The notes under the pieces: generated by a model
The model's input: the letters and a program-made list of their open reading frames with translations, nothing else
The model's database searches: none
What the model was told of the DNA's origin: nothing
Part shown: positions 25,378 through 60,501 of the stretch, piece by piece
How positions within the stretch are numbered: position 1 is the stretch's first letter
Layout of the letters: each line of letters opens with the position of its first letter
Program-made: the position numbers and the translations under genes
Source: an uncultured beta proteobacterium
GTDB taxonomy: Bacteria; Pseudomonadota; Gammaproteobacteria; Burkholderiales; Burkholderiaceae_F
Assembly (NCBI GenBank): GCA_963829995.1
Contig: CAWHKW010000031.1
Span: 238,358 to 302,357 of the forward strand
Reading direction: 5' to 3'
DNA: 64,000 nt

Positions 25378-26352
25378 ATGATTCGCATACTTTTCGTGGC
25401 AATGATCTCGCTGTTTCTGTCCAGCGCACCCGCGCAGGCGCAGGAATGGCCGACCAAGCCGGTGCGCTTCATCGTCGGCTACCCGGCCGGCGGCGGTCAT
25501 GACTTCGTTGCCCGTACCGTCGCACAGCGGATGTCCGAGACAGTTGAAGCAGACCTTCGTTGTTGAGAACCGCTCCGGCGCGTCGGGCGCGATTGGCACT
25601 GACCACGTTGCCAAGAGCGACCCCGATGGCCATACCTTGCTGATTGCCTCACCCGCCGAAGTGCTGGTCGGGCCGATCGCCGGACAGAAAGTGCCGTACG
25701 ACCCGGCGAAGGACCTGGTGCCTGTGGCGTTGATCGGCGAGACGCCGCTCGCGGTCGGCCATCCACCCATCGGTACCTGCGAACACGATGCAGGAACTAC
25801 TGGCGCTTGCGAAGCGTTCGCCGGGCAAGTTGTCTTACGGCACTCCTGGAACCGGCAGCTCGCATGCAGTTTGCAGGGGAATCGATCAAAGCGATTGGCG
25901 ACGTATTCATCGTTCACATTCCCTATCGAGGTGCCGCGCCGGCGGTGACCGATCTTCTTGGCGGGCAGGTAGAAATCGGTATTGCCGGCATGCCGCCGGT
26001 CATCGGCCACCACAAGTCGGGCAAACTAAAAATCATCGCGGTCACCAGCGCCAAACGATCGTCAGCCACGCCGGAGATCCCGTCCGTAGCCGAAGTGCCG
26101 GGCTTCGCCGGCTTTCACTTCACGAACTGGCAGGGCGTGTACGCCGCTGCGAAAACGCCGCCCGCAGTAATCCAGCGCATCGCGGCGGAGATCGCCAACG
26201 CGGTGCGCGACCCCGCCACGCGACAACGGCTGTTGACCGCGGGCGTCGATCCACTCGGGCTGGGACCCACCGAGTTTTCCGCGTTCCTGGCTCGCGAGCA
26301 CGCCACTTACTCGAAGGTCGCGAAGGATCGCAACATCAAGCTCGGCGAGTAA
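25378..26352 (+). pseudogene. Bug-family (TctC-like) tripartite tricarboxylate transporter substrate-binding protein with at least 3 frameshifts
   Basis: The three ORF pieces (25378-25566, 25499-25948, 25807-26352) concatenate into a Bug-family protein (…FIVGYPAGGGHDFVAR… / …FVVENRSGASGAIGTDHVAKS… / …YGTPGTGSS…MQFAGE…). Confidence 0.65.
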
Positions 26353-27126: not shown

Positions 27127-27465
27127 GCAATTAAGCGGGCCGGCGCAACGGCGCAGTGTCCGAAGTTCTTTAACAACTTGATAGCAACAACAGACTGGCC
27201 ACCGGTGGCGGGTGTGCGAACGCGCATGCCCGTCGCCGGTGGCGAGGCTGACATTCGTCACCTGCTTGAACATCAGGAGCAGGCGCGTGACGAATGCGCC
27301 CTTCGAGCCAGATGCGACGGCGCTCGCCTTGTAAGCGAGAGAAGACCAGGTTGGATTCCGTGGGAAGGGCGCCAAACAGCATCACACCTCGTCCGGTGGA
27401 TCCGGCGTTGCGGCTACGAACCGCGACTACTGATGTTCGATTCATCAACGAGGTGCCAATTTCAA

Positions 27466-27539
27466 AAGGGCGTAGTTCAACAGCAGAGCCTCGGCCTCCA
27501 AAACCGATGATGGGGATGCAACTTCCTCCGCCCTTGCCA
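27466..27539 (+). tRNA. tRNA-Trp (anticodon CCA)
   Basis: Hand-folded cloverleaf. Acceptor AAGGGCG/CGCCCTT, D-arm GTTC/GAGC, anticodon loop CTCCAAA, T-arm GGGGA-TGCAACT-TCCTC, 3' CCA. One C-A mismatch in the anticodon stem. Confidence 0.65.
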
Positions 27540-27543
27540 GCAT

Positions 27544-27618
27544 TGACCCGTGGCGTAACGGCAGCGCAGCGGTCTCTTAAACCGTCAGGTCTTGGTTCAA
27601 GTCCAAGCGGGTCAACCA
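27544..27618 (+). tRNA. tRNA-Lys (anticodon CTT)
   Basis: Acceptor TGACCCG/CGGGTCA, anticodon loop CTCTTAA, T-arm CTTGG-TTCAAGT-CCAAG, 3' ACCA. Confidence 0.75.
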
Positions 27619-27631
27619 GTTTTCAGATCAT

Positions 27632-27707
27632 TCCGCGATGGCCGACACGGCAAGGCAGCGCACTGTTAATGCGCTCGATAGTGGTTCGAATCCACTTCGC
27701 GGAGCCA
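27632..27707 (+). tRNA. tRNA-Asn (anticodon GTT)
   Basis: Acceptor TCCGCGA/TCGCGGA, anticodon loop ACTGTTAAT with stem GCGCA/TGCGC, T-arm AGTGG-TTCGAAT-CCACT, 3' GCCA. Confidence 0.75.
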
Positions 27708-27821
27708 GTTTCCTCCCGGGATGAAAACGCCACGGACGGCGCATTCCGGTTTCGCAGGCGCAGGCCTGTCTGCGAAGCAGCGGTCCGGCGTCGCATGCGA
27801 TGGCTGCAGGGCTTCGACATT

Positions 27822-27897
27822 CAGGGTGTAGCTCAGCTGGAAGAGTGCCGGCGTCGGAAGCCGGAGGCCGCTGGATCGTATCCAGCCACCCTGACCA
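27822..27897 (+). tRNA. tRNA-Pro (anticodon CGG)
   Basis: C1-G72 acceptor CAGGGTG/CACCCTG, D-arm TAGCTCAGCTGG, anticodon stem CCGGC/GCCGG with loop GTCGGAA, T-arm GCTGG-ATCGTAT-CCAGC, 3' ACCA. Confidence 0.75.
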
Positions 27898-27906
27898 ATA
27901 AATGAT

Positions 27907-27982
27907 GGCGATCGTGGTGTAGTGGTCTGCATCGCGTGCTGTGAACGCGCTGGTCCCGGATCGAAACCGGGCGATCGCCCCA
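27907..27982 (+). tRNA. tRNA-His (anticodon GTG) with the extra G-1:C73 pair
   Basis: 8-bp acceptor GGCGATCG/CGATCGCC, anticodon loop CTGTGAA, T-arm CCCGG-ATCGAAA-CCGGG, 3' CCA. Confidence 0.7.
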
Positions 27983-27991
27983 AAGTTTCAA

Positions 27992-28071
27992 CCCCAACTG
28001 ACGGGAATCTCGGCATACCTCGCTGTCTCAGAAACAGCGGCTTCTGCGTTCGAATCGCAGGTTGGGGACCA
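27992..28071 (+). tRNA. Non-canonical tRNA-like gene with anticodon CAG (Leu) but a class-I (short variable loop) architecture and an over-long 21-nt D region; possible pseudo-tRNA or indel-affected
   Basis: Perfect acceptor CCCCAAC/GTTGGGG, anticodon stem GCTGT/ACAGC with loop CTCAGAA, T-arm CTGCG-TTCGAAT-CGCAG, 3' ACCA. The D-arm cannot be folded canonically. Confidence 0.35.
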
Positions 28072-28073
28072 AT

Positions 28074-28148
28074 TGCAGGCGAGAGGGCTGGGTCCTCAGC
28101 GGTTTCATAAGCCGCGCTCGCTCGGTTCGATTCCGAGGCCTGCGACCA
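28074..28148 (+). tRNA. tRNA-Met (anticodon CAT; elongator type, or tRNA-Ile2 if lysidinylated)
   Basis: Acceptor TGCAGGC/GCCTGCG (U1-G72), D-arm GAGG/CCTC, anticodon loop TTCATAA, T-arm CTCGG-TTCGATT-CCGAG, 3' ACCA. Confidence 0.7.
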
Positions 28149-28263
28149 ATCGTTCGAATTGGAGCCAAAGGCGATCCATTTAATCGCGCCGCAATTCCGA
28201 ATCTCGCAACTAGCCGGCTCGAGCTCGCCGTATATCCAGGTGTACTCGCGGAGGACACTGCAA

Positions 28264-28596
28264 ATGGAAAACGGCAAGCATGTTTGGAAGGCTTTACTGT
28301 TGGGCGCGATTCTGGCGGGCAACCTGTCAGCGGCCCGCGCAGATGAACCGGTCGCCACTGGCACCCGCGGCGATCGAATCGACCTGTACGACGAGCAGGG
28401 TCCGGTCTGCCCCGAGGGTTTGAAGCGAGCGGTTTATACGTACCTGCTGCCGAACGGGCTCTCGGGTGAAACAGTCGAGGGCTGTTGGCGCGCGGATAGC
28501 ACGCTTGTTTTCATGGCGTTTGCCGATGGTGATCGCGGCGCAGTGGAGTTGGATGTTTTTACCTGGCGTCGGAGTCCTACCGGTCAACAGCTGTGA
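28264..28596 (+). CDS. Small secreted hypothetical protein embedded within the tRNA array
   Basis: Start MENGKHVWKALLLGAILAGNLSAARA (signal peptide). Followed by hairpin TTGCATCGCGagcCGCGATGCAA. Confidence 0.5.
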   Translation: MENGKHVWKALLLGAILAGNLSAARADEPVATGTRGDRIDLYDEQGPVCPEGLKRAVYTYLLPNGLSGETVEGCWRADSTLVFMAFADGDRGAVELDVFTWRRSPTGQQL

Positions 28597-28689
28597 ACTT
28601 TCTTGCATCGCGAGCCGCGCGATGCAACGTTGATCTTCGGTAAGCCAGCTCAACGCCGACATCTGAGTCGGCTTCGTCGAATCAAACAC

Positions 28690-28783
28690 GGTAGGTTGGC
28701 CGAGTGGCAAGGCACTCCTCTGCTAAGGGAGCGAGTTGTCGATCAGCGATGACGCGCGCGTTCGATCCGCGCACCTACCTCCA
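28690..28783 (+). tRNA. tRNA-Ser (anticodon GCT), class II with a long variable arm
   Basis: Acceptor GGTAGGT/ACCTACC, D-arm GCC-GAGTGGCAA-GGC, anticodon loop CTGCTAA, 22-nt variable arm, T-arm GCGCG-TTCGATC-CGCGC, 3' TCCA. Confidence 0.7.
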
Positions 28784-28789
28784 ATAACT

Positions 28790-28884
28790 GGAAGCGCAAA
28801 CCGATTGGCGACGGTGCCCGCCTTGAAAGCGGTGTGAGCTGCTATCAGCAGCCTTGGGCGTTCGACTCGACCCCGCTTCCGCCA
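28790..28884 (+). tRNA. Irregular tRNA-Ser-like gene (anticodon TGA); the acceptor pairs perfectly but the D and T arms do not fold cleanly
   Basis: Acceptor GGAAGCG/CGCTTCC with 3' GCCA, anticodon loop CTTGAAA, hairpin variable arm GCTGC…GCAGC. The T region GGGCGTTCGACTCGACCCC is imperfect. Confidence 0.35.
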
Positions 28885-28888
28885 ACTC

Positions 28889-28963
28889 GAACCGCTTGAC
28901 TTCTGGTGAGGTCACTAGGCCTTCAACCTAGCAAGACGGGTTCGATCCCCGTGCGGTTTACCA
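28889..28963 (+). tRNA. tRNA-Glu (anticodon TTC)
   Basis: Acceptor GAACCGC/GCGGTTT, D-arm GACT/GGTC, anticodon stem CTAGG/CCTAG with loop CCTTCAA, 4-nt variable loop, T-arm ACGGG-TTCGATC-CCCGT, 3' ACCA. Confidence 0.75.
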
Positions 28964-28965
28964 AC

Positions 28966-29042
28966 TGCGGCGTCGCCAAGTGGCCCAAGGCACCTGGCTC
29001 TGAACCAGGTATTCGTAGGTTCGACTCCTACCGCCGCTGCCA
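28966..29042 (+). tRNA. tRNA-Gln (anticodon CTG)
   Basis: Starts UGCGGCG like E. coli tRNA-Gln, D-arm GCC-AAGTGGCCCAA-GGC, anticodon stem CCTGG/CCAGG with loop CTCTGAA, T-arm GTAGG-TTCGACT-CCTAC, 3' GCCA. Position 1-72 is U-U. Confidence 0.7.
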
Positions 29043-29058
29043 ATTGATTCTTGATATC

Positions 29059-29134
29059 GCATCCCAAGCTGACCAGGTGGCAGCGCCGGTTTGAAGCACC
29101 GGAGGGTGTGGCTCGATACCACAGGGATGCACCA
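29059..29134 (+). tRNA. tRNA-Phe (anticodon GAA)
   Basis: Acceptor GCATCCC/GGGATGC, D-stem GCTG/CAGC, anticodon stem CCGGT/ACCGG with loop TTGAAGC, T-arm TGTGG-CTCGATA-CCACA, 3' ACCA. Confidence 0.75.
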
Positions 29135-29226
29135 AACACGGCGCATTGACGTAGACGGATGCGTACCCGGCTGTCGACCGGAGGAGAGCGGATCAATGCC
29201 GCTATGCGCCGCCACTAAAATCTTAG

Positions 29227-30447
29227 ATGGAGAACATCATGGATCTCAACGCATTGAACAACGTCCGCGCCTGGACGAATGGCGTGGAGGTCGAGTACGA
29301 CGCGGTCGCGCAGGTCAAGAACATTGCATCGCTGCCGATCGTCGCGGGACACGTCGCGATCATGCCGGACGTGCATCTCGGGAAGGGCGCGACGGTGGGT
29401 TCGGTGATTCCGACCCGGGGCGCAATCATTCCGGCGGCCGTAGGCGTCGACATCGGTTGCGGTATGTGCGCGGTGCGCACAGTGTTGACGGCGAACGATC
29501 TACCGGATTCTCTGGGCAAGATTCGCTCGGCAATCGAAGCACGCGTTCCGGTCGGGTTTTCCGCGCACGACAAGCCGGTCAGCACGCATAGTGATGGCCT
29601 GTTCGGTATGGCGCTGAAGCGCAAGGGCGAAGAACTGCACGATCGCTACAACTCGCTTCGCATCATGGATCGGGTCGGCAAGTTCGATCACAAGCGCGTC
29701 TGGAATCAGGTCGGCACGCTCGGCGGCGGCAACCACTTCGTCGAGCTCTGCCTCGACGAATCGGACGCCGTGTGGATCATGCTGCACTCGGGTTCACGCA
29801 ACGTCGGTAAGACGATCGGCGAAACTGCGATTGGGATGGCGCGCGAGATGGCCGTCAAGCACCACCGTCATCTGCCGGATCGTGACCTGGCATGGCTGGA
29901 CGAAGGCTCGCCGGAATTCGACGAATACGTCGAAGGGCTGCGTTGGGCGCAGGAGTATGCGGCGCATAACCGCAACCAGATGCTGCACGCGGTGCTGAAG
30001 TCGCTGCGCGAGGAGTTCGGGCGCGAGATTGGCACGAGCGAGCACGCAGTCAACTGCCACCACAACTACAGCTCGCTCGAGGAACACTTCGGCGAGCAGG
30101 TGTGGATCACGCGCAAGGGTGCGGTGTCGGCACGCGCCGGTGAGCTCGGCATCATTCCGGGCAGCATGGGTGCGCGTTCGTTCATCGTGCGCGGCAAGGG
30201 AAACGCGGATGCGTATCACTCGTGCTCGCACGGGGCAGGGCGTCGTTTGTCGCGCAATGCGGCCAAGCGCAAGTTCACGCTCGATGATCTGCGCAAGCAG
30301 ACCGAAGGCGTCGAATGCCGCAAGGACGCGGGCGTGCTCGACGAAATCCCGGGCGCATACAAGGACATCGACGCAGTGATGGCCGCGCAGGCCGATCTGG
30401 TCGAAGTCGTGCACACGCTGAAGCAGATCATGTGCATCAAGGGCTAA
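29227..30447 (+). CDS. rtcB: RNA-splicing ligase RtcB (3'-phosphate/5'-OH RNA ligase)
   Basis: Near full-length colinearity with E. coli RtcB (…HVAIMPDVHLGKGATVGSVIPT…GGGNHFVELC…CHHNY…SCSHGAGR…AYKDIDAVMAAQADLVEVVHTLKQIMCIKG). No rtcA or rtcR adjacent. Confidence 0.9.
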   Translation: MENIMDLNALNNVRAWTNGVEVEYDAVAQVKNIASLPIVAGHVAIMPDVHLGKGATVGSVIPTRGAIIPAAVGVDIGCGMCAVRTVLTANDLPDSLGKIRSAIEARVPVGFSAHDKPVSTHSDGLFGMALKRKGEELHDRYNSLRIMDRVGKFDHKRVWNQVGTLGGGNHFVELCLDESDAVWIMLHSGSRNVGKTIGETAIGMAREMAVKHHRHLPDRDLAWLDEGSPEFDEYVEGLRWAQEYAAHNRNQMLHAVLKSLREEFGREIGTSEHAVNCHHNYSSLEEHFGEQVWITRKGAVSARAGELGIIPGSMGARSFIVRGKGNADAYHSCSHGAGRRLSRNAAKRKFTLDDLRKQTEGVECRKDAGVLDEIPGAYKDIDAVMAAQADLVEVVHTLKQIMCIKG

Positions 30448-30573
30448 GCGTCGTCGTGAATATTCAGTAGCACAGCCGCAGAACGGTCGGCGGCGCACGC
30501 CGACCGTTCGCCCTACCGTGCAGCCCGTGAAAGCTCGCTACGAGCCATCCTGTTTCAAACGTAAGAATCCGGG

Positions 30574-30840
30574 ATGGCATCGGAAATGATTGCGTTGCGA
30601 GCGTTCTTCACGATGAACATCATTGAACACAAAAGAGGCATCGCCATGAGACATGCTCAAGACAACCTGAAACCCGCCAGCCGGTTGCTGGACCTCCGGT
30701 TCAATTACATCCCTGCGGCGGCGACCGATATCGCGGCGACATGGAAGCGCTTCGGATTCGATCCGCACGCTAACAAGCAACGGCGTGAGCAGCTTAGGAA
30801 CAGCATCACCGGCCCTGCGGCTGCACTAATCGCATCGTAA
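30574..30840 (+). CDS. Small hypothetical protein (88 aa)
   Basis: ORF only; no recognisable domain. Confidence 0.25.
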   Translation: MASEMIALRAFFTMNIIEHKRGIAMRHAQDNLKPASRLLDLRFNYIPAAATDIAATWKRFGFDPHANKQRREQLRNSITGPAAALIAS

Positions 30841-30985
30841 GTATTCAGATCCGCTATTGCGGATCCACCTAATTCTCTCGGCAAGCTGCCGTCAGCGGGC
30901 CAGCCTCGTGAGTGCTGCCTGGTGCGCGCGCCCGTCCCGTACGTCGGACGCGCGCATACCGCGGCAAGGCGCTGAGTGAATGCAT

Positions 30986-31070
30986 CGTGATTTGGCGCAG
31001 AGGTAGCGCACGCGTCTCATCGAGAAAATGAAAACGCGAGGTGAAGGTTCGACTCCTTCAATCACGACCA
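30986..31070 (+). ncRNA. tRNA-Met-like element with an 11-nt insertion in the anticodon loop (CTCAT-cgagaaaatga-AA); aberrant tRNA, pseudo-tRNA or tRNA-like ncRNA
   Basis: Otherwise canonical: acceptor CGTGATT/AATCACG, D-arm GCGC-AGAGGTA-GCGC, anticodon stem CGCGT/ACGCG, T-arm GAAGG-TTCGACT-CCTTC, 3' ACCA. Confidence 0.4.
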
Positions 31071-31144
31071 CTCCCTAGCTCAGTGGGTAGAGCAACGGTC
31101 TGATAAGCCGTCAGTCGCGGGTTCGACTCCCGCGGGATATCCCT
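31069..31144 (+). ncRNA. tRNA-Ile(GAT)-like element with a defective acceptor stem (only 4 of 7 bp) and no 3' CCA; it abuts the previous element
   Basis: D-arm TAGCTCAGTGGGTAGAGC, anticodon stem ACGGT/GCCGT with loop CTGATAA, T-arm GCGGG-TTCGACT-CCCGC. 5' CACTCCC versus 3' GGGATAT. Ends in the palindrome GGGATATCCC. Confidence 0.35.
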
Positions 31145-31433: not shown

Positions 31434-32567
31434 ATGTTCCGCAAGTTCCTGATCAAGAAGGACGAACGCGGACTGCTGTTTCGCAAGGGTGACTTCGTCA
31501 CTGTGCTGCACGCGGGAGAGCACCGTTACTTCGATCCGTTTATGCGTCTGACTGTCGAAAAGTATCCGCTCGCGAAGACCGCGTTCGACCATCGTCTGGC
31601 CGACTACCTGCGTCATGCAGAGCCGGCGCTGATTGAACGCGAGTTCCATGTTGTCGAAGTGGGTCCGACCGAAGTCGGGCTGCGCTACGAAAACCGTCTG
31701 CTCGTCGAAGTCATTGCGCCGAATACGCACCGCCTGTACTGGAAGGGCTACATCGACGTACGCGTAGCGCGCATCGACATCAGCGAAAACTTCGTGCTGC
31801 CGCATAGCCTGACGCTGCAGCTCGGAACCGCAACCGGCCGCGCGAAGGTGATCGGCGCCGAGCACGTGCTCGCGGTCCAGGTGCCGCAGCATCACGTCGG
31901 CCTGCTGTTCGTCGACGGCAAGGTGCATCAGATGCTGCAGCCGGGTCTGCACGCGTTCTGGAAGTTCAACCGCGATCTGCGCGTTGAGCTGGTTGATCTG
32001 CGCATGCTGCCGCTCGAAGTCGCTGGCCAGGAAATCCTGACCAAGGACAAGGTGGCGCTGCGCATCAATTTGAACGCCGGCGTGCGCTTCATCGACGTGC
32101 TGGCCGCGTTCGCGCAGCAGGCCAAGCCGCTCGACTACCTGTACCGCGAGCTGCAGTTCGGGCTGCGTGCGGCTGTTGGCACACGCACGCTCGACGAGCT
32201 GCTCGAAGACAAGGGGTCAATCGACCGCACTGTTGCCGAGCACATCGGTGCACGCGCGCGTGCTGCCGGAATGGAAGTCGCAAGCGTCGGGGTGAAGGAC
32301 ATCATCCTGCCGGGCGAGATGAAGACCATCCTCGCTCGCGTGGTGGAAGCCGAAAAGGCTGCGCAGGCCAACGTGATTCGTCGTCGTGAAGAAACGGCGG
32401 CGACGCGCAGCCTGCTCAACACCGCGAAGGTGATGGAAGACAACCCGATTGCGCTGCGAATGAAGGAGCTGGAAACGCTGGAAAAGGTCACCGAGAAGAT
32501 CGACAAGATCAGTGTCTACGGTGGACTCGACAGCGTGCTGAAGGATCTGGTGAAGATCCGCGCGTAG
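31434..32567 (+). CDS. SPFH/band-7 (slipin/stomatin-like) domain protein
   Basis: RBS and MFRKFLIKKDERGLLF… with SPFH core and a coiled-coil tail. The last 74 nt of the gene are duplicated at 33824-33897. Confidence 0.75.
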   Translation: MFRKFLIKKDERGLLFRKGDFVTVLHAGEHRYFDPFMRLTVEKYPLAKTAFDHRLADYLRHAEPALIEREFHVVEVGPTEVGLRYENRLLVEVIAPNTHRLYWKGYIDVRVARIDISENFVLPHSLTLQLGTATGRAKVIGAEHVLAVQVPQHHVGLLFVDGKVHQMLQPGLHAFWKFNRDLRVELVDLRMLPLEVAGQEILTKDKVALRINLNAGVRFIDVLAAFAQQAKPLDYLYRELQFGLRAAVGTRTLDELLEDKGSIDRTVAEHIGARARAAGMEVASVGVKDIILPGEMKTILARVVEAEKAAQANVIRRREETAATRSLLNTAKVMEDNPIALRMKELETLEKVTEKIDKISVYGGLDSVLKDLVKIRA

Positions 32568-33897
32568 TTAGAAGGTCTCGCACGCTCCTCGCTGCTGCAT
32601 GGTGGCGAGGAGCAGCTGCGAGGGTGGTGTCATTTCGGAGGCAGTGGCTTGATAAACCCGCCCTTTCCCATCAGGTCGCCAAAGCCCGGATTCGGTGGAG
32701 GCGCAGGTTTCACCGCGGGCGATGGCCCTGTAGCCTGTTGTTTGTCGCGGTGATGGCTCCATAGGCCGAATTCATAGTCGCCTGAGCAACCCTGACTTCT
32801 TCCGCCATGAATTTGTTACCAGTCTCCGTTACCCTAAACCGAACGATCCCGCCAGTGACAGTGCTGAAGCTGTGGGATAAGAGGAACTGCCTCACAGTCT
32901 CCCTGAACGCTTTCGTCCTTGCGGTCGGCGGGTTGGCCCATGACTCCTTCTTCACAACGGTTGGAGGTACGCAGACGTCCAGGATGTACTGGCCGGAAAT
33001 GCGAGGCTTCGGGGCATCGGGACCGCGCATGAGGTCCTTCAGGACTGCATGGAGATGCATTTTGTCCCCGGGGCCTTGCGTGACCGGAGTGGATGAGGAC
33101 TGCCAGCCGGCGACCGGGATCGCCCGGTCGTTTGGGCCAAGTGCCACCGTGAACCTCTTCGGTGGGCCGTACTGCTTGCTATATGAATTGGGATACAAAC
33201 CCTGCGTCGGTTCCCAGACGATCGATGCAGGAATCAGAACGCCCTTCGGACATTTGTGCTGCGGGTCTTTCCCGTTCACTCGGTACTTGTAGTTCTCCCC
33301 TCCTACGCACAGATGAAAGCGGGACGTCGCAACGCCGCTGGGCGGGCGAATCTTGACCGCGCCCGTGACGCCGGTTGAGTCGGTAAACACAAAAGCCAGA
33401 TGCAGCGGGAAGCTTTGGAAACTGAACAGATTGTTCGGCGCATAGAACTGCGAAAAAACGAGCTTGCACTTTCCAGGTTCAACCCGGTGCCAGTACTCGA
33501 TCATCCAAAACTCGTCGGTGAAGCCGAAGTCCTTATAGGCGACCGCCACAAGCACCTTGATCTGGCCTTGGTTGCAGACTTCCGCGTGATAAAGCTCATT
33601 CGGTTGTCCGGCGTAGTCATATTGTGGGGCGGCCCACAGGCGCGCAGCGGGCAGTAGAAGCAACGTGGTCAGCAGCGCGATCCGGATAGGGCTCACTTGG
33701 CCTCCCTGTCTCTCCGGGCAACGCCTGAACCACTTCGAACCTGACCCGGCTAACTAAACAGAATGCGCTTGGCAGCCGCAGCGTGTCAATGCAGGTTGGA
33801 TTCGGGCCAAGCGCAGCATACCCAGAAGATCGACAAGATCAGCGTGTACGGTGGACTCGACAGCGTGCTGAAGGATCTGGTGAAGATCCGCACGTGA
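32494..33897. mobile_element. Cassette-like insertion at the 3' end of the SPFH gene: a 1256-bp lower-GC segment (32568-33823) bracketed by imperfect 74-bp direct repeats of the SPFH gene 3' end
   Basis: Direct repeats at 32494-32567 and 33824-33897 differ at ~5 of 74 positions. The second copy is followed by the presumed original terminator. Insert GC ~52% versus ~64% flanks. No integrase or transposase inside. Confidence 0.45.
32710..33696 (-). CDS. Secreted hypothetical protein carried on the insertion
   Basis: Signal peptide MSPIRIALLTTLLLLPAARLWAAP. Cysteine-containing, no recognisable domain, lower GC. Confidence 0.5.
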   Translation of the reverse strand: MSPIRIALLTTLLLLPAARLWAAPQYDYAGQPNELYHAEVCNQGQIKVLVAVAYKDFGFTDEFWMIEYWHRVEPGKCKLVFSQFYAPNNLFSFQSFPLHLAFVFTDSTGVTGAVKIRPPSGVATSRFHLCVGGENYKYRVNGKDPQHKCPKGVLIPASIVWEPTQGLYPNSYSKQYGPPKRFTVALGPNDRAIPVAGWQSSSTPVTQGPGDKMHLHAVLKDLMRGPDAPKPRISGQYILDVCVPPTVVKKESWANPPTARTKAFRETVRQFLLSHSFSTVTGGIVRFRVTETGNKFMAEEVRVAQATMNSAYGAITATNNRLQGHRPR

Positions 33898-33898
33898 A

Positions 33899-33936
33899 GA
33901 AACCCGCTTCTCAATGAGAAGCGGGTTCTTCTTGAA
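33899..33936 (+). terminator. Rho-independent terminator (original SPFH-gene terminator)
   Basis: 12-bp stem AACCCGCTTCTC/GAGAAGCGGGTT with loop AAT, then CTTCTT. Confidence 0.5.
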
Positions 33937-34797
33937 ACAAACTTCCGATACGAAGCGGCTTGGCCAGTGACATGCAACCGCGTAAGTCACACATCGGCTG
34001 GCGCGTAGCAGCGCCGCTCACTTCTTCTCTCCCGCTGCAACTACCACCTTGCGGTCTTTCCAGCTCGCGTCGTCGTGAGAAGCGCCAGCGTGCTCCGCAT
34101 TGCTGAAGCTGCTCGCGTACTCGACGAATTCGGCCAAAAAGCTGAACCGGAAAACCACTAACGTGGCGATTACTACAACGGCGTAAAGGAAGTCCCCTGT
34201 CTTACTACATCGATCCCAGTGCCTCATGACGATCTCCATTGGGTTAAGACTGCACAAACAAAAAAGCCCGGAGGCGTTCACGCGATCCGGGCTTCCGTTG
34301 GCAGCAGGGTCCAACTACATCTCTGGACCTCCACTAGAACCCATCGTCAGCACGGACACACTAGACAGCGTCGCCCCGGCGCAAGACGTGACGATGCCGA
34401 CTGCCGACACCGCGCGCCCGACGCCCACCGCCGCGAAGTTCATTCGCGACGAGGTTGGTTGGCTACTGCCCAGGTTGAACATCTCAAGACCTCCACAAAC
34501 CGGCGTTATCGCCGGGGAACGAAATATAAGAAGCGTAGGTGATACAGGTCAATGAAATTCGCGCGTGAATTTTCGTAGTGTTGCGCGTTTGCAGCGCGAA
34601 TACTCCAGATGAAAGTTCCCCAAGGCTAGGCCGAGCCACTGCAGCGAGGCAAGCGGTCGCGGAGTCGGTAGGCCGGCCGTGATCGAAAGCTAAAGGCGCC
34701 TACGTGATTCTTGCGCTCCAATCTGTCGGTATCGCGACATCAAGCAGCTTTTGCGCAATACTTGCGCGAGCAGGAGAACCGTCGGAGGGGAGTCAAT

Positions 34798-35247
34798 ATG
34801 AAAAGAGCAATTCTGATCGTCGCGGCGCTTGGTTCACTGGTGCTCGCGGGTTGTGCGCACCGCTTTTCCATCATCGATCCGGCTCGGCCGCAGGTGTTTG
34901 TTTCGGAGGGTAGGATCGTGGTCAATCAGGAGCCGGTGATCGTGAAGCGGCCCGGCACCATCACATGGACGGTGCCCTGGGGTTCGAATGTCCGCTTTGC
35001 CGACAACGGCATTACGGTGGATGCATTCGTCAAGCCACTGCCAACGCGTGACGGAAGGCCACAGCCGCGCCCAGTCACCCGCGACACGAGTCGGGCCTCT
35101 CTGTTCAAGTGCGAACCCAACAAGGAGAGAACCGAGTTCTCCTGCAATGTGCCGCAAGAGGTCCAACCGGGCTTCTATGCCTACACGATTCGCGTGCTCG
35201 CCGACGGCAAGCCGGTCGAACTGGATCCGACGGTCATGGTCGAGTAG
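34798..35247 (+). CDS. Lipoprotein, hypothetical
   Basis: MKRAILIVAALGSLVLAGC lipobox, preceded by AGGAGG-like RBS context. Confidence 0.55.
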   Translation: MKRAILIVAALGSLVLAGCAHRFSIIDPARPQVFVSEGRIVVNQEPVIVKRPGTITWTVPWGSNVRFADNGITVDAFVKPLPTRDGRPQPRPVTRDTSRASLFKCEPNKERTEFSCNVPQEVQPGFYAYTIRVLADGKPVELDPTVMVE

Positions 35248-38014
35248 CAGCCAACCAGCGGCGCGCCCGCTGCGTTGCTTCGTCGTAGCCGACGGAGCGC
35301 CCGACGGATTCGCGCTCCAGTGCCATCGGACCGAGTGCTGCGCGCGCCCGCGCAATCGCTGCTGATAGAAAGGCCTGGTCGGCCGGATCACGGCGCAGTT
35401 CGCTGCGGTCGGCCTGCGCCTCGGCTGCTCCGAAGAACTCGGCGCCGAGGGGAAGGTCGCATTCGGCCACAGCCAGGCCTGCACAGACCTCTAGAAGACT
35501 TTGGCCCATCGCCTTTGAGCCGGTGCGGTCGACGATCGTCAGAACTTCCTCGAGCAGTCGTCTTGCCTCCGAAGGTTGATCGCGAAGCACTGCGACCATG
35601 GCTAGATTGAGCAATCCGATTGCCACGCTCTCGTCGTCGCACAGTTCACGCGCGAGAGACAGGAACTCGGTATACAGCGGGCACGCGCGATCAAGCACTC
35701 CCTGAGCCCTTAGCACCTGCGCCTGAGTGTTCATTGTTGCCGCCAGCGTGCGTTTGTTGCTGGCGGTGCGCGCAAGCGCGACGGCCTCTTCGCAACACGC
35801 AAGCGCGGAGTCGGGGTTTCCGAGCGCGAGCTCGACCATGCCGAGCAATTGCAAAACCGCCACTACGCGGGAACCATCGTTGAGCTCGCGTGCAATCGAA
35901 AGGCTCTGCTGCAGGAGTTCGTGCGCCTCGGTATAGCGACCCATGAAGTAGCAGATCTGACCCGCGTCCGCGAGCCCGCGGCAGCGCGACAGCGTTCGGC
36001 TCTGGGCATGGGGCCGAGCCAGCGCTTCGCTCGTGACTCGATATCCCAGACCGAGAAGTCCGCGGTTCAGCCAATAGAACTTCAGGGCGAACACCATGCG
36101 CAGATCGGTCTCAGCGCCGCGGTCACTTCGGTCGCACCACGCATGGGCAGCGAGGATGTTCTCGCGTTCACGGTCAAGTATGGTCATGCACGTGCCTTGC
36201 TCTGGCCCGAGCATTCTCGGTCGCAGCTGCTCGACGAACTGCGAGTAGAAATCGAGATGACGCTGGCGGGCGGCTGCGTTATCGCCAAATGCGTCGAGCT
36301 TCTCCAGCGCGTAATGCCGCACGGTGTCCAGCATCCGGTACCGCTCCCCGCTCACTTCCATCACGACCAGCGACTTTTCGACCAGCTGCGACTGCAGGTC
36401 GACGACGTCGCTGGCTTCGATCGGGCCGCCCGCACAGATCGCTTCAGCGCCCTCCAGCGTCCAGCCGCCCGCGAACACTGCGAGCCGCTGGAAAGCCGCG
36501 CGCTCGCGTTCGTCGAGCAGGTCGTAGCTCCAGTCGATCAATGCGCGCAGCGTGCGCTGGCGCGGCAACACGGTCCTGTCGCTGGTTACCAGCAGCTTGA
36601 AGCGGTCGTTCAGCCGCGCAGCGATGTTCTCGACCGACAGCGCGCGTGCACGCGCGGCCGCGAGCTCGATCGCGAGCGGGATGCCGTCCAGCTGATGGCA
36701 GATGTCGGCGACCGCTGTGGCGTTGCCGCCCGTAAGCACGAACTCCGGACGGGCCGCAGTCACGCGGTCGATGAACAGGCGTACGGCTTCGTGCTGCGGC
36801 TAGCGCCGAGAGCGACTCCTTTGCCTGCGGGTCGGGCGCGCTCAGCGTCGGCACGTGGTAGGTCGTTTCCCCAGCGACCTGCAGGTAGTCGCGACTCGAG
36901 GTCAAGCACTTTCACGCCGGACCCGGCCTGCAGTAGCTGTTTGGCCAGGTCAGCGCACGCATGAACGACGTGCTCGCAGTTGTCGAGCATGACCAGCACG
37001 CGCTAGTCGCGCACGTACTTCAGTCAGCGCTTCGATCACCGGCCGGCCGGCTTCTTCCTTGACGCCGAGCACCGAGGCCACCGCCTGCGGCACCAACCGC
37101 GCATCGGTCAGCGGCGCAAGCTCGACAAACCAGACGCCGTCGGGGAAGTCGTCGAGTACTTCGGCCGCGAGCTGCATCGACAGCCGCGACTTGCCGATGC
37201 CACCCATCCCAAGCAGCGTCACTAGCCTGTTCGACGCGAGCATGTCCCTGATCTCCGAAAGCTCGCGTTCGCGGCCGATGAACGAGTTCAGCTGTTGCGT
37301 GAGGTTGTTCGGCGTCCCTTCCAGCGATCGCAACGCGGGAAAATCGGCGCGCAGTTGCGGGTGCAGCAGTTGGAAGATGTGCTCCGGGGTCGACAGGTCG
37401 CGGAGTCGCACCGCGCCCAGGTCCCGTAGCGATGCGCCATCCGGGAGCATTCCGTTAACTTGATCAGCCACCGCCTTCGAAAGCAACATCTGGCCACCAT
37501 GGGCAGCGCACATGATCCGAGCTGCGCGATTAACCGACCGGCCATAAAAGTCGCCGTCGCGTCGCTCGTCAATTCCGGCATGCAGTCCGCAACGCAACGG
37601 TAGCGGCAAGCCGTCTGCGGTTTCTGCTGTCGATAGCTGTTGCTGGATCTCCAGAGTGGCGATCAATGCATCGAGCGGGCGGTCAAACGCGGCATGTATG
37701 CCATCGCCGGTCATCTTCACGATCGTTCCACGGTTGCGTTCGACCGCGCTCTTCGAGATCGCGTCATGCCGCGCCATTACCAGTGGCATCCGCGCGGACT
37801 CCTGCTCCCAGAGTCGGGTGCTGCCCTCGATATCTGTGAAAAGAAATGTGACTGGAGACTGTTCAGACACGTTGGTAATGTGCCGAGCCAAGGCAGAGCC
37901 GGATGTTACTGCGGAGTCGATTCGCAACGGCGCCGCGCTCTGCCGCCTGTGCGCGAGTTGGCTTACGCTAACGCGAACCGGACGATTCCATGGGTACCAG
38001 CGATTCGAAGCCAA
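35234..38014 (-). pseudogene. Adenylate/guanylate cyclase (CHD) + NB-ARC/AAA ATPase + TPR (STAND-type) protein, broken into 3 or more frames with in-frame stops around 36760-37000
   Basis: Cyclase motifs FLFTDIEGST…VKMTGDGIHAAF, P-loop GMGGIGKSRL, NB-ARC LDNCEHVV in a second frame (36760-36999), and TPR-rich C-terminal ORF 35234-36763. Confidence 0.65.
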
Positions 38015-53155: not shown

Positions 53156-54193
53156 TTGCAAATGACCGAAGCTCCGCTGATCGTCGCCCGTCCCCAGGGG
53201 CTGTACTGCCCGCCGGGCGACTTCTATATCGATCCCTGGCGCGAAGTCGACCGGGCGGTTATCACGCACGCCCATGGCGATCACGCACGCCCGGGGCACG
53301 CAAGTTACCTGGCGGCGACTGCAGCCGAACACGTTCTGCGTACGCGGCTTGGCGCAATCACGCTGCAGACAATCGACTACGAAGATCCGATCGACATCAA
53401 CGGCGTGCGAGTGTCGCTGCATCCCGCCGGACATGTGCTCGGCTCCTCGCAGGTCAGAGTCGAACACGGCGGGCGGGTGTGGGTGGCTTCGGGCGACTAC
53501 AAACTCAATCCGGACGCAACGTGCCTTCCGTTCGAGCCCGTCCGTTGCGACACGTTCATCACCGAATCGACCTTCGGACTGCCGATCTATCGCTGGGATG
53601 ATTCCGCGCGGATCTTCAGCGACATCAACGCGTGGTGGAGCGCCAACGCAGACAGTGGGCGTGCATCGGTGCTGTTCTGCTATGCGTTCGGCAAAGCCCA
53701 ACGCATCTTGTCCGGGGTGGATGCGAGCATCGGCCGCATCGTCGTGCATGGTGCGGTCGAACCTTTGAATCGCGCGTACCGCGCCAGCGGTGTAGCACTG
53801 CCACCGACCCAACTCGTGTCGGAAACCGAGCCGGCCGATCTGGCGCGCGCGCTCATATTGGCGCCGCCGTCTGCGCAAGGCTCGCCGTGGCTGCGCCGCT
53901 TCGGCGATTACTCCGACGCGTTCGCTTCGGGCTGGATGCGATTGCGCGGCACGCGCCGCCGGCGCGCACTCGATCGCGGTTTCGTATTGTCGGATCACGC
54001 CGATTGGCCGGGATTGCTGCAGGCGGTCGACGCCACCGGCGCGCAACAGGTGATCGTTACGCACGGGCAGGTTCCGGTACTGGTGCGCTGGCTCAGCGAG
54101 CACGGGCGCGACGCCTCGGCATTCGAAACCGAGTACGGCGATGAGGAGGCGGGCGACGCGGTGGCAGCGGAGCATTCATCCGAGTTGGCATGA
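53156..54193 (+). CDS. Ligase-associated DNA damage response exonuclease (metallo-beta-lactamase fold)
   Basis: HAHGDHA MBL motif, and the first position in the conserved exonuclease-ligase-helicase module. Confidence 0.7.
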   Translation: MQMTEAPLIVARPQGLYCPPGDFYIDPWREVDRAVITHAHGDHARPGHASYLAATAAEHVLRTRLGAITLQTIDYEDPIDINGVRVSLHPAGHVLGSSQVRVEHGGRVWVASGDYKLNPDATCLPFEPVRCDTFITESTFGLPIYRWDDSARIFSDINAWWSANADSGRASVLFCYAFGKAQRILSGVDASIGRIVVHGAVEPLNRAYRASGVALPPTQLVSETEPADLARALILAPPSAQGSPWLRRFGDYSDAFASGWMRLRGTRRRRALDRGFVLSDHADWPGLLQAVDATGAQQVIVTHGQVPVLVRWLSEHGRDASAFETEYGDEEAGDAVAAEHSSELA

Positions 54194-55836
54194 AGCGCTT
54201 CGCAAGACTCTTCAATGAGCTCGACACTTCGACATCGACCCGCTCCAAGGTCGATGCGCTGAAGCGTTACTTTGCGATCGCCGACGCTGCCGATGCCGCC
54301 TGGGCTGTCTACTTTCTGGCCGGCGGAAAGCCGCGGCAGGCGATCAATTCACGCGTGTTGCGCGAGTTCGCGATCAGCGCCAGCGGCCTGCCCGATTGGT
54401 TGTTCGAAGAAAGCTATCAAGCCGTCGGCGACCTGGCCGAGACGATCGCGCTGCTGTTGCCGCCTCCCGTCCGGGCAAGCGATGGCTCGCTTGCGTTCTG
54501 GATCGAAGAACGATTGTTGCCGCTGCGTGGCCGCGCGCCGGCTGACGTGCTGGCAGCACTGCGCGACTACGTCGAAGAACTCGATACACCTGAGCGGTTC
54601 CTGCTGATCAAGCTGATCGGCGGCGGGTTTCGAGTCGGCGTGTCGAAATTGCTCGTGACGCGTGCGCTCGCAGAGCATTCGGGTATCGACGCGAAACTGG
54701 TTGCACAGCGGATGATCGGGTACACCGATGTCACGCTGGCGCCGACGCCCGAGCGGTACTCGGCGCTGATAAATACCGGCCAGCACGTCGTCGCCGATGG
54801 TCATCCTTATCCGTTTTTTCTTGCGCACTCTTTGACGCTGCCGGTCGAGCGCTTCGAGCAAGAGTTGGGGTCCCCCGCCCGGTGGCTGATCGAATGGAAG
54901 TACGACGGCATTCGCGCGCAACTGGTCCGTCGCGTTGGCAAAGCCTGGCTCTGGTCGCGCGGCGAGGAATTGATCACCGAACGTTTTCCGGAAGTCGTCG
55001 AGCGTGCGCGCCCCGTGCCCGACGGCACGGTGCTCGACGGCGAAATTCTGGTCTGGCGGGGCGATCGGCCGCAGCCGTTTGCGCTGCTGCAGAAACGTGT
55101 CACTCGCAAAAGTGTGACGGCGCAGGTATTGCGCGAGGCGCCTGCGGTGTTCATGGCGTACGACTTGCTGGAAGACGGCGGCGAAGATTTGCGAATGCGC
55201 CCGCAGCGAGAGCGGCGAGCAGCGCTCGAACGACTGGGCGCCGCGCACGACCTGCTGATCTCGCCGCGGCTCACGGGCGAGTCGTGGGAGCAACTTGCGT
55301 TGCTGCGCGAGCAGTCGCGCGATCGCGGCGTCGAAGGCTTGATGATCAAGCATCTTGAGTCGACCTATCGCGTGGGCCGCACCAAGGAGGCGAGTGCCAA
55401 CTGGTGGAAGTGGAAAATCGATCCGTATGCGGTCGACGCGGTGCTGGTCTACGCGCAGCGCGGCCACGGCCGCCGCGCCAGTTTGTATTCCGACTACACG
55501 TTCGCGGTCTGGGCTTCGGACTCGGGAACGCCCGCGCGTGCGTTGGTGCCGTTTACCAAGGCGTATTCGGGACTCACCGATGAAGAGATACGCAAGGTCG
55601 ACGCTGCAATTCGCCGCACGACGATCGAGAAGTTCGGGCCGGTGCGCAGCGTGACGCCGACGATGGTGTTCGAAATCGGCTTCGAGGGCATCCAGCGCTC
55701 GCCGCGGCACAAGAGCGGAATCGCAGTCCGGTTCCCGCGCATGCTGCGTTGGCGTCAGGACAAGCCGGTTGACGAAGCCGATACGCTGTCGGCGTTGCAG
55801 TCGCTGCTGGACCGCGCAGCCAGCGCGCAGGGGTAG
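54190..55836 (+). CDS. ATP-dependent DNA ligase (ligase-associated damage response, LigC-like)
   Basis: Adenylation motif EWKYDGIR (KxDG), plus motifs III-VI; 548 aa. 4-nt overlap with the exonuclease gene. Confidence 0.8.
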   Translation: MKRFARLFNELDTSTSTRSKVDALKRYFAIADAADAAWAVYFLAGGKPRQAINSRVLREFAISASGLPDWLFEESYQAVGDLAETIALLLPPPVRASDGSLAFWIEERLLPLRGRAPADVLAALRDYVEELDTPERFLLIKLIGGGFRVGVSKLLVTRALAEHSGIDAKLVAQRMIGYTDVTLAPTPERYSALINTGQHVVADGHPYPFFLAHSLTLPVERFEQELGSPARWLIEWKYDGIRAQLVRRVGKAWLWSRGEELITERFPEVVERARPVPDGTVLDGEILVWRGDRPQPFALLQKRVTRKSVTAQVLREAPAVFMAYDLLEDGGEDLRMRPQRERRAALERLGAAHDLLISPRLTGESWEQLALLREQSRDRGVEGLMIKHLESTYRVGRTKEASANWWKWKIDPYAVDAVLVYAQRGHGRRASLYSDYTFAVWASDSGTPARALVPFTKAYSGLTDEEIRKVDAAIRRTTIEKFGPVRSVTPTMVFEIGFEGIQRSPRHKSGIAVRFPRMLRWRQDKPVDEADTLSALQSLLDRAASAQG

Positions 55837-55881
55837 ACTTTCGGCGTCGCAAATTGCGCGATACATTCAAGGAGGCATTCG

Positions 55882-56130
55882 ATGAAGCGTTACGTTTCTG
55901 TTGCGGCAGCGCTCATGCTGTTCATGAGCGCCGCATTTGCCAATAGCTGCCCCACCATGATGAAAAAGATCGACGACGCGATGGCAGCGAAGCCGAAAAT
56001 GACCGACGCGCAAATGGCGGATGTCAAAAAGTACCGCGCTGAGGGCGAAACAATGCACAAGGCCGGCAAACACAAGGAATCGGAAGCCGCGCTGACCAAG
56101 GCGATGGCAATAATGAACATCAAGCCATAG
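55882..56130 (+). CDS. Small periplasmic protein (signal peptide, Lys/Ala-rich)
   Basis: [20 protein letters not shown] signal. Followed by a terminator. Confidence 0.5.
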
Positions 56131-56136
56131 GAGAAG

Positions 56137-56176
56137 TTGCAACGACAACACGCCGCCCATGGGCGGCGTGTTGTTT
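56137..56176 (+). terminator. Rho-independent terminator
   Basis: ACACGCCGCCCATGGGCGGCGTGT perfect hairpin followed by TGTTTTTCG. Confidence 0.7.
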
Positions 56177-60439: not shown

Positions 60440-60501
60440 AGCGGCACGAATTGTGCCACGGGCCCCGTGTGAGCAAGACACGTAGTTAAGGCAGAAACAA
60501 G

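What the first reader, a model, noticed from the sequence alone, without database searches (positions are those of the whole stretch)
32494..33897. 1.26-kb lower-GC cassette inserted into the 3' end of the SPFH gene, flanked by 74-bp direct repeats that rebuild the gene end
The last 74 nt of the SPFH ORF (32494-32567) recur at 33824-33897 with ~5 substitutions, including a different stop codon (TAG vs TGA). The second copy is followed by a clean rho-independent terminator and is presumably the ancestral gene end.

The intervening segment has ~52% GC versus ~64% in the flanks. It encodes a single secreted protein of unknown function on the opposite strand.

This is the signature of site-specific integration into a gene 3' end, with the element supplying a replacement end, as seen for integrative elements and some phage moron cassettes. 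Here no integrase is present, so either a trans-acting recombinase or a decayed island is implied.
Basis: seen in the sequence. Interest (0 to 1): 0.65.

Follow-up and report, generated by a model that had tools for sequence, protein, structure and literature searches.

The report
Gene cassette inserted into SPFH gene end
A 1.3-kb gene cassette with no recombinase gene, which carries its own copy of the last 76 bases of a membrane-protein (SPFH) gene, has inserted into that gene's end, keeping the gene intact and leaving the original end as a decaying fragment; this is a small, well-documented case of a known kind of event.

Summary
A 76-nt direct repeat (32490-32565 and 33820-33895, 72/76 identical) flanks a 1.25-kb segment that encodes one secreted protein.

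- **Same site, different contents.** About ten relatives are occupied: some carry the secreted-protein gene alone, others also carry a small ORF and an AraC regulator. Their second copy ranges from about 10 nt to a 75-nt block plus further fragments reaching about 200 nt upstream.
- **The cassette carries the gene end.** At two loci without an adjacent SPFH gene (L094/L096/L099 and L097), the secreted-protein gene keeps the same hairpin and a roughly 72-76-nt SPFH-end block. The block always starts at SPFH nt 1057-1059.
- **No mobility genes.** Pfam found no integrase or transposase in about 46 ORFs of the window, and the cassette has no homologue in phage or plasmid collections.
- **Corrections.** The GC dip is 58.5% against 61.7%, not 52% against 64%. 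The window's copy of the gene is frameshifted.

The best reading is single-crossover (Campbell-type) insertion through the 76-nt arm. Host homologous recombination is favoured. A recombinase acting in trans is not excluded.

The parts
31434..32567 (+). SPFH/Band_7 gene, intact, ending in TAG. This is the target gene.
   Evidence: Pfam PF01145, 85.8 bits. It is 93-98% nt identical to the orthologues in L001, L082, L083, L093 and L098.
32490..32565 (+). Repeat copy 1, the last 76 nt of the working SPFH gene. After the recombination its 3' side, including the TAG at 32565-32567, is joined to cassette DNA.
   Evidence: In occupied alleles the sequence reads CGCGCGT|AGTYAAGAAAG...; in the empty allele it reads CGCGCGT|GAAGAAACCC.
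32575..32625 (.). Hairpin 1, an imperfect stem of about 20 bp between the convergent SPFH and secreted-protein genes. It belongs to the cassette and probably acts as a terminator in both directions.
   Evidence: -33.8 kcal/mol. The same hairpin and flank follow the secreted-protein gene at loci without an adjacent SPFH gene (L094, L096, L097, L099).
32630..33696 (-). Secreted-protein gene (referred to as 'sec'): signal peptide, DUF1036-like N-terminal domain, and conserved PGFGDL..GGFIKPLP tail. In the window it is broken by a 1-nt frameshift near 32783-32790, so the ORF as read is 32710-33696.
33697..33819 (-). Upstream (promoter) region of the secreted-protein gene. The cassette's right end lies at about 33815-33819 (...GCGCAGCAT|).
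   Evidence: Homology with L089, L091 and L083 ends at 33817, 33815 and 33805 respectively, in different contexts.
33820..33895 (+). Repeat copy 2, the displaced ancestral SPFH gene end (stop TGA at 33895-33897). It is non-coding and decaying.
   Evidence: It is contiguous with the terminator and right flank exactly as in the empty site L093. Its substitutions are mostly private to each lineage.
33896..33932 (+). Terminator 2, the ancestral intrinsic terminator of SPFH.
   Evidence: -25.2 kcal/mol. It is near-identical in L093, L001, L082, L083 and L089.

Best explanation
The repeat is the scar of a single-crossover (Campbell-type) insertion of a small gene cassette that has no recombinase gene.

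**The cassette.** It is about 1.33 kb and consists of:
- a 76-nt copy of the SPFH gene end;
- a TAG stop;
- a hairpin with a stem of about 20 bp;
- the secreted-protein gene in convergent orientation;
- about 120 nt of that gene's upstream region.

**The event.** Recombination between the cassette's 76-nt arm and the chromosomal SPFH 3' end leaves SPFH complete. SPFH now ends in the cassette's TAG and hairpin. The original end (TGA plus intrinsic terminator) is pushed 1.33 kb downstream, where it survives as a non-coding fragment and decays.

**Shown.** The insertion polarity, the precise empty site, the cassette carrying the gene-end block at other loci, and the absence of mobility genes.

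**Inferred.** That the crossover was made by host homologous recombination (RecA-type) on a circularised or tandem-derived cassette rather than by a dedicated recombinase. Also inferred: that later events at the same spot produced the long allele (AraC, small ORF, secreted-protein gene), the various truncations of copy 2 and the frameshift seen here.
For: 1. Empty site L093 has tRNAs, SPFH, TGA, terminator 2 and the same right flank, with nothing inserted.
2. In occupied alleles the junction falls exactly after the T of the stop codon.
3. In the SPFH tree L093 is sister to all occupied alleles.
4. At the glyoxalase-TctBAC/ABC-transporter locus (L094, L096, L099), and in an IS-rich contig (L097), the secreted-protein gene is followed by the same hairpin, a TAG and a 72-76-nt SPFH-end block. 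The block is 77-94% identical to SPFH (E about 1e-24). tblastn found no SPFH coding sequence anywhere in the fetched L094 and L096 loci; in L097 and L099 the gene next to the block is not SPFH. In every case the block starts at SPFH nt 1057-1059, the same boundary as window copy 2.
5. The cassette's right end (...GCGCAGCAT) coincides in the window and in the unrelated LemA context L091.
6. Pfam found no integrase or transposase in about 46 window ORFs or in any occupied allele.
7. There is no homologue in viral contigs or plasmids.
8. Circularisation of incoming linear DNA followed by recA-dependent single-crossover integration is documented in E. coli (PMC3240628).
Against: 1. L089, the closest relative, has an extra SPFH fragment (gene nt 934-967, 88.6% identical) left of its 75-nt copy 2. 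A cassette arm that starts at nt 1057 does not predict this fragment. It calls for a second event or a longer original duplication.
2. The long alleles keep only 35 nt of copy 2, yet by the SPFH tree they are not basal to the short alleles. The locus history therefore involves recombination that I could not resolve.
3. Homologous recombination cannot explain how the cassette, with the same left end, reached loci that have no SPFH homology (L097, inside a truncated transposase gene; the Tct/ABC locus).
4. A 76-nt arm is short for RecA-mediated crossover.
5. No circular form or excision product was observed.
Confidence: 0.55

Rival explanations
1. Site-specific integration by a recombinase encoded elsewhere in the genome. 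The 76-nt SPFH end, or a core near nt 1057, is an att site, and the cassette is a minimal element mobilised in trans.
For: - The block's left boundary is the same (nt 1057-1059) in the window's copy 2, in L097 and in L094/L096/L099.
- The cassette's right end is also shared between two contexts.
- The cassette sits at sites with no SPFH homology.
- In L096 a second secreted-protein cassette sits exactly at the TAG/hairpin junction.
Against: - No recombinase gene in the cassette, in the 64-kb window or in any occupied contig.
- No direct repeat of the block or the target flanks the cassette at the other loci.
- The length of copy 2 differs by lineage, from about 10 nt to a 75-nt block plus upstream fragments.
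- I saw no dyad-symmetric core at the boundary when reading the sequence.
Confidence: 0.2
2. One-ended homologous plus illegitimate recombination (HFIR) of linear DNA from a relative in which SPFH and the secreted-protein gene were already neighbours. The illegitimate joint landed about 200 nt upstream of the stop in the recipient's SPFH. This left a long duplicated gene end that was later trimmed differently in each lineage.
For: - L089 keeps SPFH nt 934-967 as well as the last 75 nt.
- L098 shows SPFH-TAG-hairpin-secreted-protein gene with no second copy and a different right flank, which is a possible donor-type layout.
- HFIR has been proposed to explain displaced 3' remnants at T6SS effector and Rhs loci (PMC5361080).
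Against: - It does not explain why the block starts at nt 1057-1059 at three unrelated places.
- It does not explain why the cassette's right end abuts copy 2 directly in the window.
- HFIR is reported to be very rare (3e-10 per recipient in E. coli conjugation, PMC3240628).
Confidence: 0.15
3. The repeat is a chance match, an assembly artefact, or a local tandem duplication with no foreign DNA involved.
For: None beyond the fact that the source is probably a metagenome assembly. Frameshifts occur in the secreted-protein gene and in the neighbouring cyclase-STAND-TPR gene.
Against: - E-value about 1e-29.
- The same layout occurs in independent assemblies from several projects.
- An empty site exists.
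- The intervening gene has paralogues at other loci.
Confidence: 0.02

Closest known systems
e14 and phage 21 integration into the E. coli icd gene (from my own knowledge, not re-read here)
   Same: Insertion into the 3' end of a protein-coding gene. The element supplies a replacement gene end so the gene stays intact. The displaced original end remains as a pseudo-fragment at the far junction, so the insert is flanked by direct repeats.
   Different: Those elements are prophages that encode a tyrosine integrase and have a short att core. Here the insert is 1.3-2.6 kb, has no recombinase, is absent from phage collections, and the two copies differ little (72/76).
Genomic islands integrated at tRNA or tmRNA gene 3' ends
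   Same: The target is a gene's 3' end, direct repeats rebuild the gene, and related genomes differ in presence or absence.
   Different: The target here is a protein-coding gene, there is no integrase, and the payload is tiny.
Minimal mobile elements of Neisseria (from my own knowledge): gene cassettes without mobility genes, exchanged by homologous recombination in conserved flanks
   Same: No mobility genes. Alternative contents occur at one chromosomal site between conserved flanks: empty, the secreted-protein gene alone, or that gene plus a small ORF and AraC. The internal gene's history is decoupled from its flanks.
   Different: Minimal mobile elements use two homologous flanks and leave no duplicated gene end. 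Here a single 76-nt arm gives a Campbell-type duplication, and the same cassette also occurs at unrelated loci.
Displaced 3' remnants at T6SS effector-immunity, Rhs and CDI loci, attributed to HFIR (PMC5361080)
   Same: Incoming DNA anchored by a conserved gene segment leaves the previous 3' part stranded downstream. The payload is a hypervariable secreted protein.
   Different: There the incoming DNA replaces the toxin's C-terminus. Here the host gene's coding sequence is unchanged, and the payload is a separate convergent gene with no recognisable toxin or immunity domains.
Integron gene cassettes
   Same: A single-ORF unit followed by an imperfect palindrome. Tandem cassettes occur at L096 and L097.
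   Different: No intI gene. No conserved RYYYAAC/GTTRRRY core at the hairpin flanks (the flank reads GTAGTCAAG or GTAGTTAAG). The window's cassette includes about 120 nt of its own upstream region.

Membership tests
Integrase-mediated integrative element at a gene 3' end (icd/e14 type, tRNA-island type) | Direct repeats of the target gene's 3' end flank the insert, and the gene stays intact | tested here: met
Integrase-mediated integrative element at a gene 3' end (icd/e14 type, tRNA-island type) | An empty site with a precise junction exists in relatives | tested here: met
   L093
Integrase-mediated integrative element at a gene 3' end (icd/e14 type, tRNA-island type) | The element carries its own copy of the target sequence (attP-like) when it lies outside the target | tested here: met
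   A block of 72-76 nt sits next to the hairpin and the secreted-protein gene in L094, L096, L097 and L099
Integrase-mediated integrative element at a gene 3' end (icd/e14 type, tRNA-island type) | A tyrosine or serine recombinase gene lies inside the element | tested here: not met
   The insert encodes only the secreted protein (plus a small ORF and AraC in long alleles). Pfam found no recombinase in about 46 window ORFs
Integrase-mediated integrative element at a gene 3' end (icd/e14 type, tRNA-island type) | Excision to a circular form | not testable with these tools
   This needs read-level data or an experiment
Insertion sequence or composite transposon | Terminal inverted repeats, a short target duplication and a transposase | tested here: not met
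   No inverted repeats at the insert's ends and no transposase in the window. IS fragments flank the cassette only in L097
Integron cassette | attC with conserved core sites and an intI gene nearby | tested here: not met
   The hairpin flanks lack a conserved GTTRRRY or RYYYAAC motif, and Pfam found no integrase
Minimal mobile element (recombinase-free cassette exchanged by homologous recombination) | Alternative cassettes or an empty state at one site between conserved flanks, with no mobility genes | tested here: met
   Empty (L093), short (window, L089) and long (L001, L082-L088, L090) alleles
Minimal mobile element (recombinase-free cassette exchanged by homologous recombination) | Transfer by natural transformation and RecA | not testable with these tools
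   The organism is known only from metagenome bins
HFIR product | One homologous junction and one illegitimate junction with microhomology | tested here: inconclusive
   The left junction shares GCGYGT with the cassette flank (L096). The right junction shares AGAAG. Both are also compatible with a single crossover
SPFH/Band_7 (target gene) | Pfam PF01145 above the gathering score | tested here: met
   85.8 bits against 23.6
DUF1036 (payload protein) | Pfam PF06282 above the gathering score | tested here: inconclusive
   22.1 bits against a cut-off of 23, covering the N-terminal 50 residues only. Some homologues carry a precomputed PF06282 hit

The most novel reading that the evidence does not exclude
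The cassette may be a minimal element without autonomy whose 76-nt mimic of the SPFH end is a functional part of it. In one version the block is the recognition site of an unlinked recombinase that moves the cassette with fixed ends between SPFH and other loci. In another version the block is an antisense segment in the secreted-protein gene's 3' region that pairs with SPFH mRNA when the cassette sits elsewhere. The fixed nt 1057-1059 boundary at three unrelated places, and the retention of the block at loci without an adjacent SPFH gene, are not excluded as signs of such a function.
Probability: 0.12. Interest if true: 0.7.

Novelty: new variant of a known kind. Interest (0 to 1): 0.4.

Why it matters
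This locus shows, with an empty site and about ten occupied alleles, how a single accessory gene can enter a conserved gene's 3' end without disrupting it and without carrying a recombinase. The cassette simply carries a short copy of that gene end. If the mechanism is common, such gene-end mimics could explain small accessory-gene insertions that island-finding tools miss because they look for integrases.

The payload is a hypervariable secreted protein of unknown function, found so far only in environmental metagenome and MAG contigs. Between close relatives its C-terminal half is 73-85% identical while the flanks are 98-99% identical, so it may be under diversifying selection.

Tried and rejected
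- **Phage moron or plasmid cargo.** No homologue of the secreted protein in IMG/VR viral contigs or in PLSDB plasmids.
- **Integrase or transposase nearby.** Five Pfam scans covering about 46 ORFs spread across the window found none.
- **Known RNA element in or near the insert.** Rfam found only tRNAs in 26-36 kb.
- **Compositional island.** The GC difference is about 3 points and the right flank is equally low.
- **Hairpin 1 as the ancestral SPFH terminator.** I first thought so because L002 has a similar stem. I dropped the idea when the same hairpin was found attached to the secreted-protein gene at loci without an adjacent SPFH gene.
- **Copy 2's left edge as a random deletion endpoint.** The AGAAG microhomology with L089 suggested this. 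It was weakened by the recurrence of the same boundary in L094, L096, L097 and L099.
- **IS21 insertion at nt 1056 in L097.** Rejected because the adjacent rve-domain ORF appears, from my reading of its sequence, to be truncated at its N-terminus, so the junction would lie inside the transposase gene rather than at an IS end.
- **Direct repeats around the cassette at other loci.** None found.
Full report
**1. The observation**

The window holds a 76-nt direct repeat at 32490-32565 and 33820-33895. It is 72/76 identical, with spacing 1330. The blastn E-value is about 1e-29, and no further copy exists in the 64 kb.

Copy 1 is the end of a Band_7/SPFH gene at 31434-32567. Copy 2 runs into a strong hairpin at 33896-33932 (-25.2 kcal/mol).

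Between the copies lies a second, longer hairpin at 32575-32625 (-33.8 kcal/mol) and one minus-strand gene for a protein with a signal peptide. That gene is frameshifted in the window. The ORF as read stops at 32710, but the neighbouring frame down to 32630 encodes GDYEFGLWS...PGFGDLMGKGGFIKPLPPK. This is the conserved C-terminus of the family.

The reported GC contrast is not there. The insert is 58.5% GC, the window 61.7%, SPFH 61.1% and the right flank 57.2%.

**2. Relatives: an empty site and several occupied forms**

A scan of species-representative genomes with the SPFH protein gave L001, a Betaproteobacteria MAG with about 93% nt identity in the flanks. There the same site holds a different 2.6-kb segment. 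It contains a homologue of the secreted protein that is only 55% identical, a 96-aa ORF and an AraC-family regulator.

Homologues of the secreted protein number 62, all from environmental metagenomes or MAGs. Looking up their contigs gave the following.

| Allele or context | Loci | Content to the right of SPFH |
|---|---|---|
| Long | L082-L088, L090 (and L001) | Secreted-protein gene, small ORF, AraC, then a 35-nt copy 2 ending in TGA, then terminator 2. In L001 the remnant is shortened by a 25-nt internal deletion |
| Short | Window, L089 | Secreted-protein gene only. L089 has a 75-nt copy 2 plus an extra SPFH fragment (gene nt 934-967) further left |
| Occupied, no copy 2 | L098 | Secreted-protein gene, then a different right flank |
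| Empty | L093 | TGA, terminator 2 and the same right flank, with nothing inserted |

L093 came from a metagenome scan for 'SPFH end contiguous with terminator 2'. It was the only hit: a 2.9-kb contig with tRNAs, a complete SPFH (93.2% nt identical), TGA, terminator 2 and the same right flank.

More distant SPFH genes (L003-L019) also end in a stop codon followed directly by an intrinsic terminator. Copy 2 plus terminator 2 is therefore the ancestral gene end. In occupied alleles the foreign DNA starts right after the T of the stop codon: CGCGCGT|AGTYAAGAAAG..., against CGCGCGT|GAAGAAACCC in the empty site.

In a tree of SPFH genes the empty allele is sister to all occupied alleles. The right flank gives a different tree, so recombination has shuffled the locus.

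**3. The cassette carries the gene end**

Paralogues of the secreted protein occur at other chromosomal places:
- between a glyoxalase-TctBAC cluster and an ABC transporter (L094, L096, L099);
- in a 2-hydroxyacid dehydrogenase/ferredoxin context (L081, L095);
- next to LemA/DUF2207 (L091, L092);
- in an IS-rich contig (L097).

In L094, L096, L099 and L097 the gene is followed by the same hairpin 1 and flank, a TAG, and a 72-76-nt block. The block is 77-94% identical to the SPFH 3' end (E about 1e-24). tblastn found no SPFH coding sequence anywhere in the fetched L094 and L096 loci. In L097 and L099 the gene next to the block is not SPFH.

The block begins at SPFH nt 1057-1059 in every case. 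This is the position where window copy 2 begins.

- **L097.** The block abuts an rve-domain transposase ORF that appears truncated at its N-terminus, so the junction is not an IS end.
- **Right end.** The cassette's other end (...GCGCAGCAT) is shared between the window and the LemA context L091.
- **L096.** Two secreted-protein cassettes lie in tandem. The first retains hairpin 1 and only the last 8 nt of the block plus TAG.

Together these show a discrete unit, window 32490-33819, made of the block, TAG, hairpin 1, the secreted-protein gene and its upstream region.

**4. Mechanism**

A circle of that unit crossing over once with the chromosomal SPFH end gives exactly the window's structure. 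SPFH is intact and ends in the cassette's TAG and hairpin. The cassette's upstream end is joined to the start of a second block. That block runs into the original TGA and terminator.

Neither the cassette, nor any occupied allele, nor about 46 ORFs spread across the window encodes an integrase or transposase. The secreted protein has no homologue in viral contigs or plasmids.

I therefore favour host homologous recombination. Circularisation of linear DNA followed by recA-dependent single crossover is documented in E. coli (PMC3240628).

This step is inferred, not shown, and three facts do not fit it cleanly:
- L089 has an extra SPFH fragment upstream of nt 1057.
- The long alleles have a shorter copy 2 although they are not basal.
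- The cassette, with the same left end, is present at loci that offer no homology.

The last point is the best argument for a recombinase acting in trans, which I rate at about 0.2. One-ended homologous plus illegitimate recombination, as proposed for displaced 3' remnants at T6SS and Rhs loci (PMC5361080), is a third possibility.

**5. The payload**

The gene is strikingly mosaic. Between the window and L089 the flanks and the N-terminal part are 98-99% identical, the middle 85% and the C-terminal part 73%. At the Tct/ABC locus the neighbouring glyoxalase gene is 90-96% identical while the secreted-protein gene is 70-82% identical.

Several copies are truncated or frameshifted (window, L001, L090, L091).

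In the long allele the order is AraC, then divergently the small ORF and the secreted-protein gene. This looks like a regulated two-gene operon. The window has lost the regulator and the small ORF and carries a frameshift, so its copy is probably decaying.

**6. Verdict**

The GC argument and the phage analogy are wrong, and site-specific integration remains unproven.

This is a small variant, without a recombinase gene, of a known kind of event. It is moderately interesting mainly because the cassette's gene-end mimic is seen at several loci with a fixed boundary.

Noticed in passing
window 27386-31137: There is an array of 11 tRNA genes (27386-29134), then RtcB RNA ligase (29227-30447), then tRNA-Ser with the unusual anticodon AGA (30986-31070), all directly upstream of SPFH. 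A further tRNA-like Rfam hit (31072-31137, 53.8 bits) was not called by ARAGORN. The array's composition differs between relatives: 13 tRNAs in L001, 14 in L013, 8 in L018. Odd anticodons (AAT, ATT, ATC) sit just before SPFH in several of them. Long tRNA arrays next to rtcB are described in PMC8421152.
   Followed up: partly
loci L013, L021-L078: SPFH and RtcB are neighbours across many Proteobacteria, including Pseudomonas, Variovorax, Erwinia, Proteus and Citrobacter. There RtcB usually lies directly downstream of SPFH. In the window's clade RtcB is upstream. This looks like a conserved two-gene module that I did not pursue.
   Followed up: no
window 35234-38014 (-): The adenylate cyclase-STAND ATPase-TPR regulator is split into two ORFs (36950-38014 and 35234-36763). 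In L090 it is one 884-aa gene. This is either a frameshift or pseudogene, or a sequencing error. Its TPR part is only about 53-55% identical to L001 and L090, while the cyclase part is 84-92% identical.
   Followed up: no
window 34711-35247 (+): The putative lipoprotein gene just right of the locus is only 34% identical in protein to the gene at the same position in L001, and it does not align in DNA with L001, L082, L083 or L089 (L093 gives only a weak partial hit, 66.7% over 159 nt). This is a second variable spot next to the first.
   Followed up: no
window 32783-32790: A 1-nt frameshift in the secreted-protein gene removes its conserved C-terminal tail. Truncations or frameshifts also occur in L001, L090 and L091/L092, the last in two independent assemblies.
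   Followed up: yes
L097 1-5154: Here the cassette (block, hairpin, secreted-protein gene) lies between a truncated rve-domain (IS21-like) transposase ORF and fragments that look like IS630 and IS3 transposases. A second GTGCGTAGTCAAGA motif lies about 35 nt upstream of the gene's start, as in a tandem cassette array.
   Followed up: partly
SPFH gene nt 1057-1059 (window 32490-32492): This is a recurrent breakpoint. The window's copy 2, L089's well-preserved block, L097 and the three Tct/ABC-locus copies all start within 3 nt of each other. A single origin of the cassette's end would explain most of these but not L089's internal discontinuity.
   Followed up: partly
window 25807-26352: The TctC-family ORF bordering the tRNA array matches only the C-terminal half of the Pfam model (positions 119-273 of 274). 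It may have been truncated when the array was acquired.
   Followed up: no
window 53156-58780: A gene cluster encodes an ATP-dependent DNA ligase and an Lhr-type helicase, with a separate HNH endonuclease at 59858-60535. These look like ordinary DNA-repair genes unrelated to the finding.
   Followed up: no
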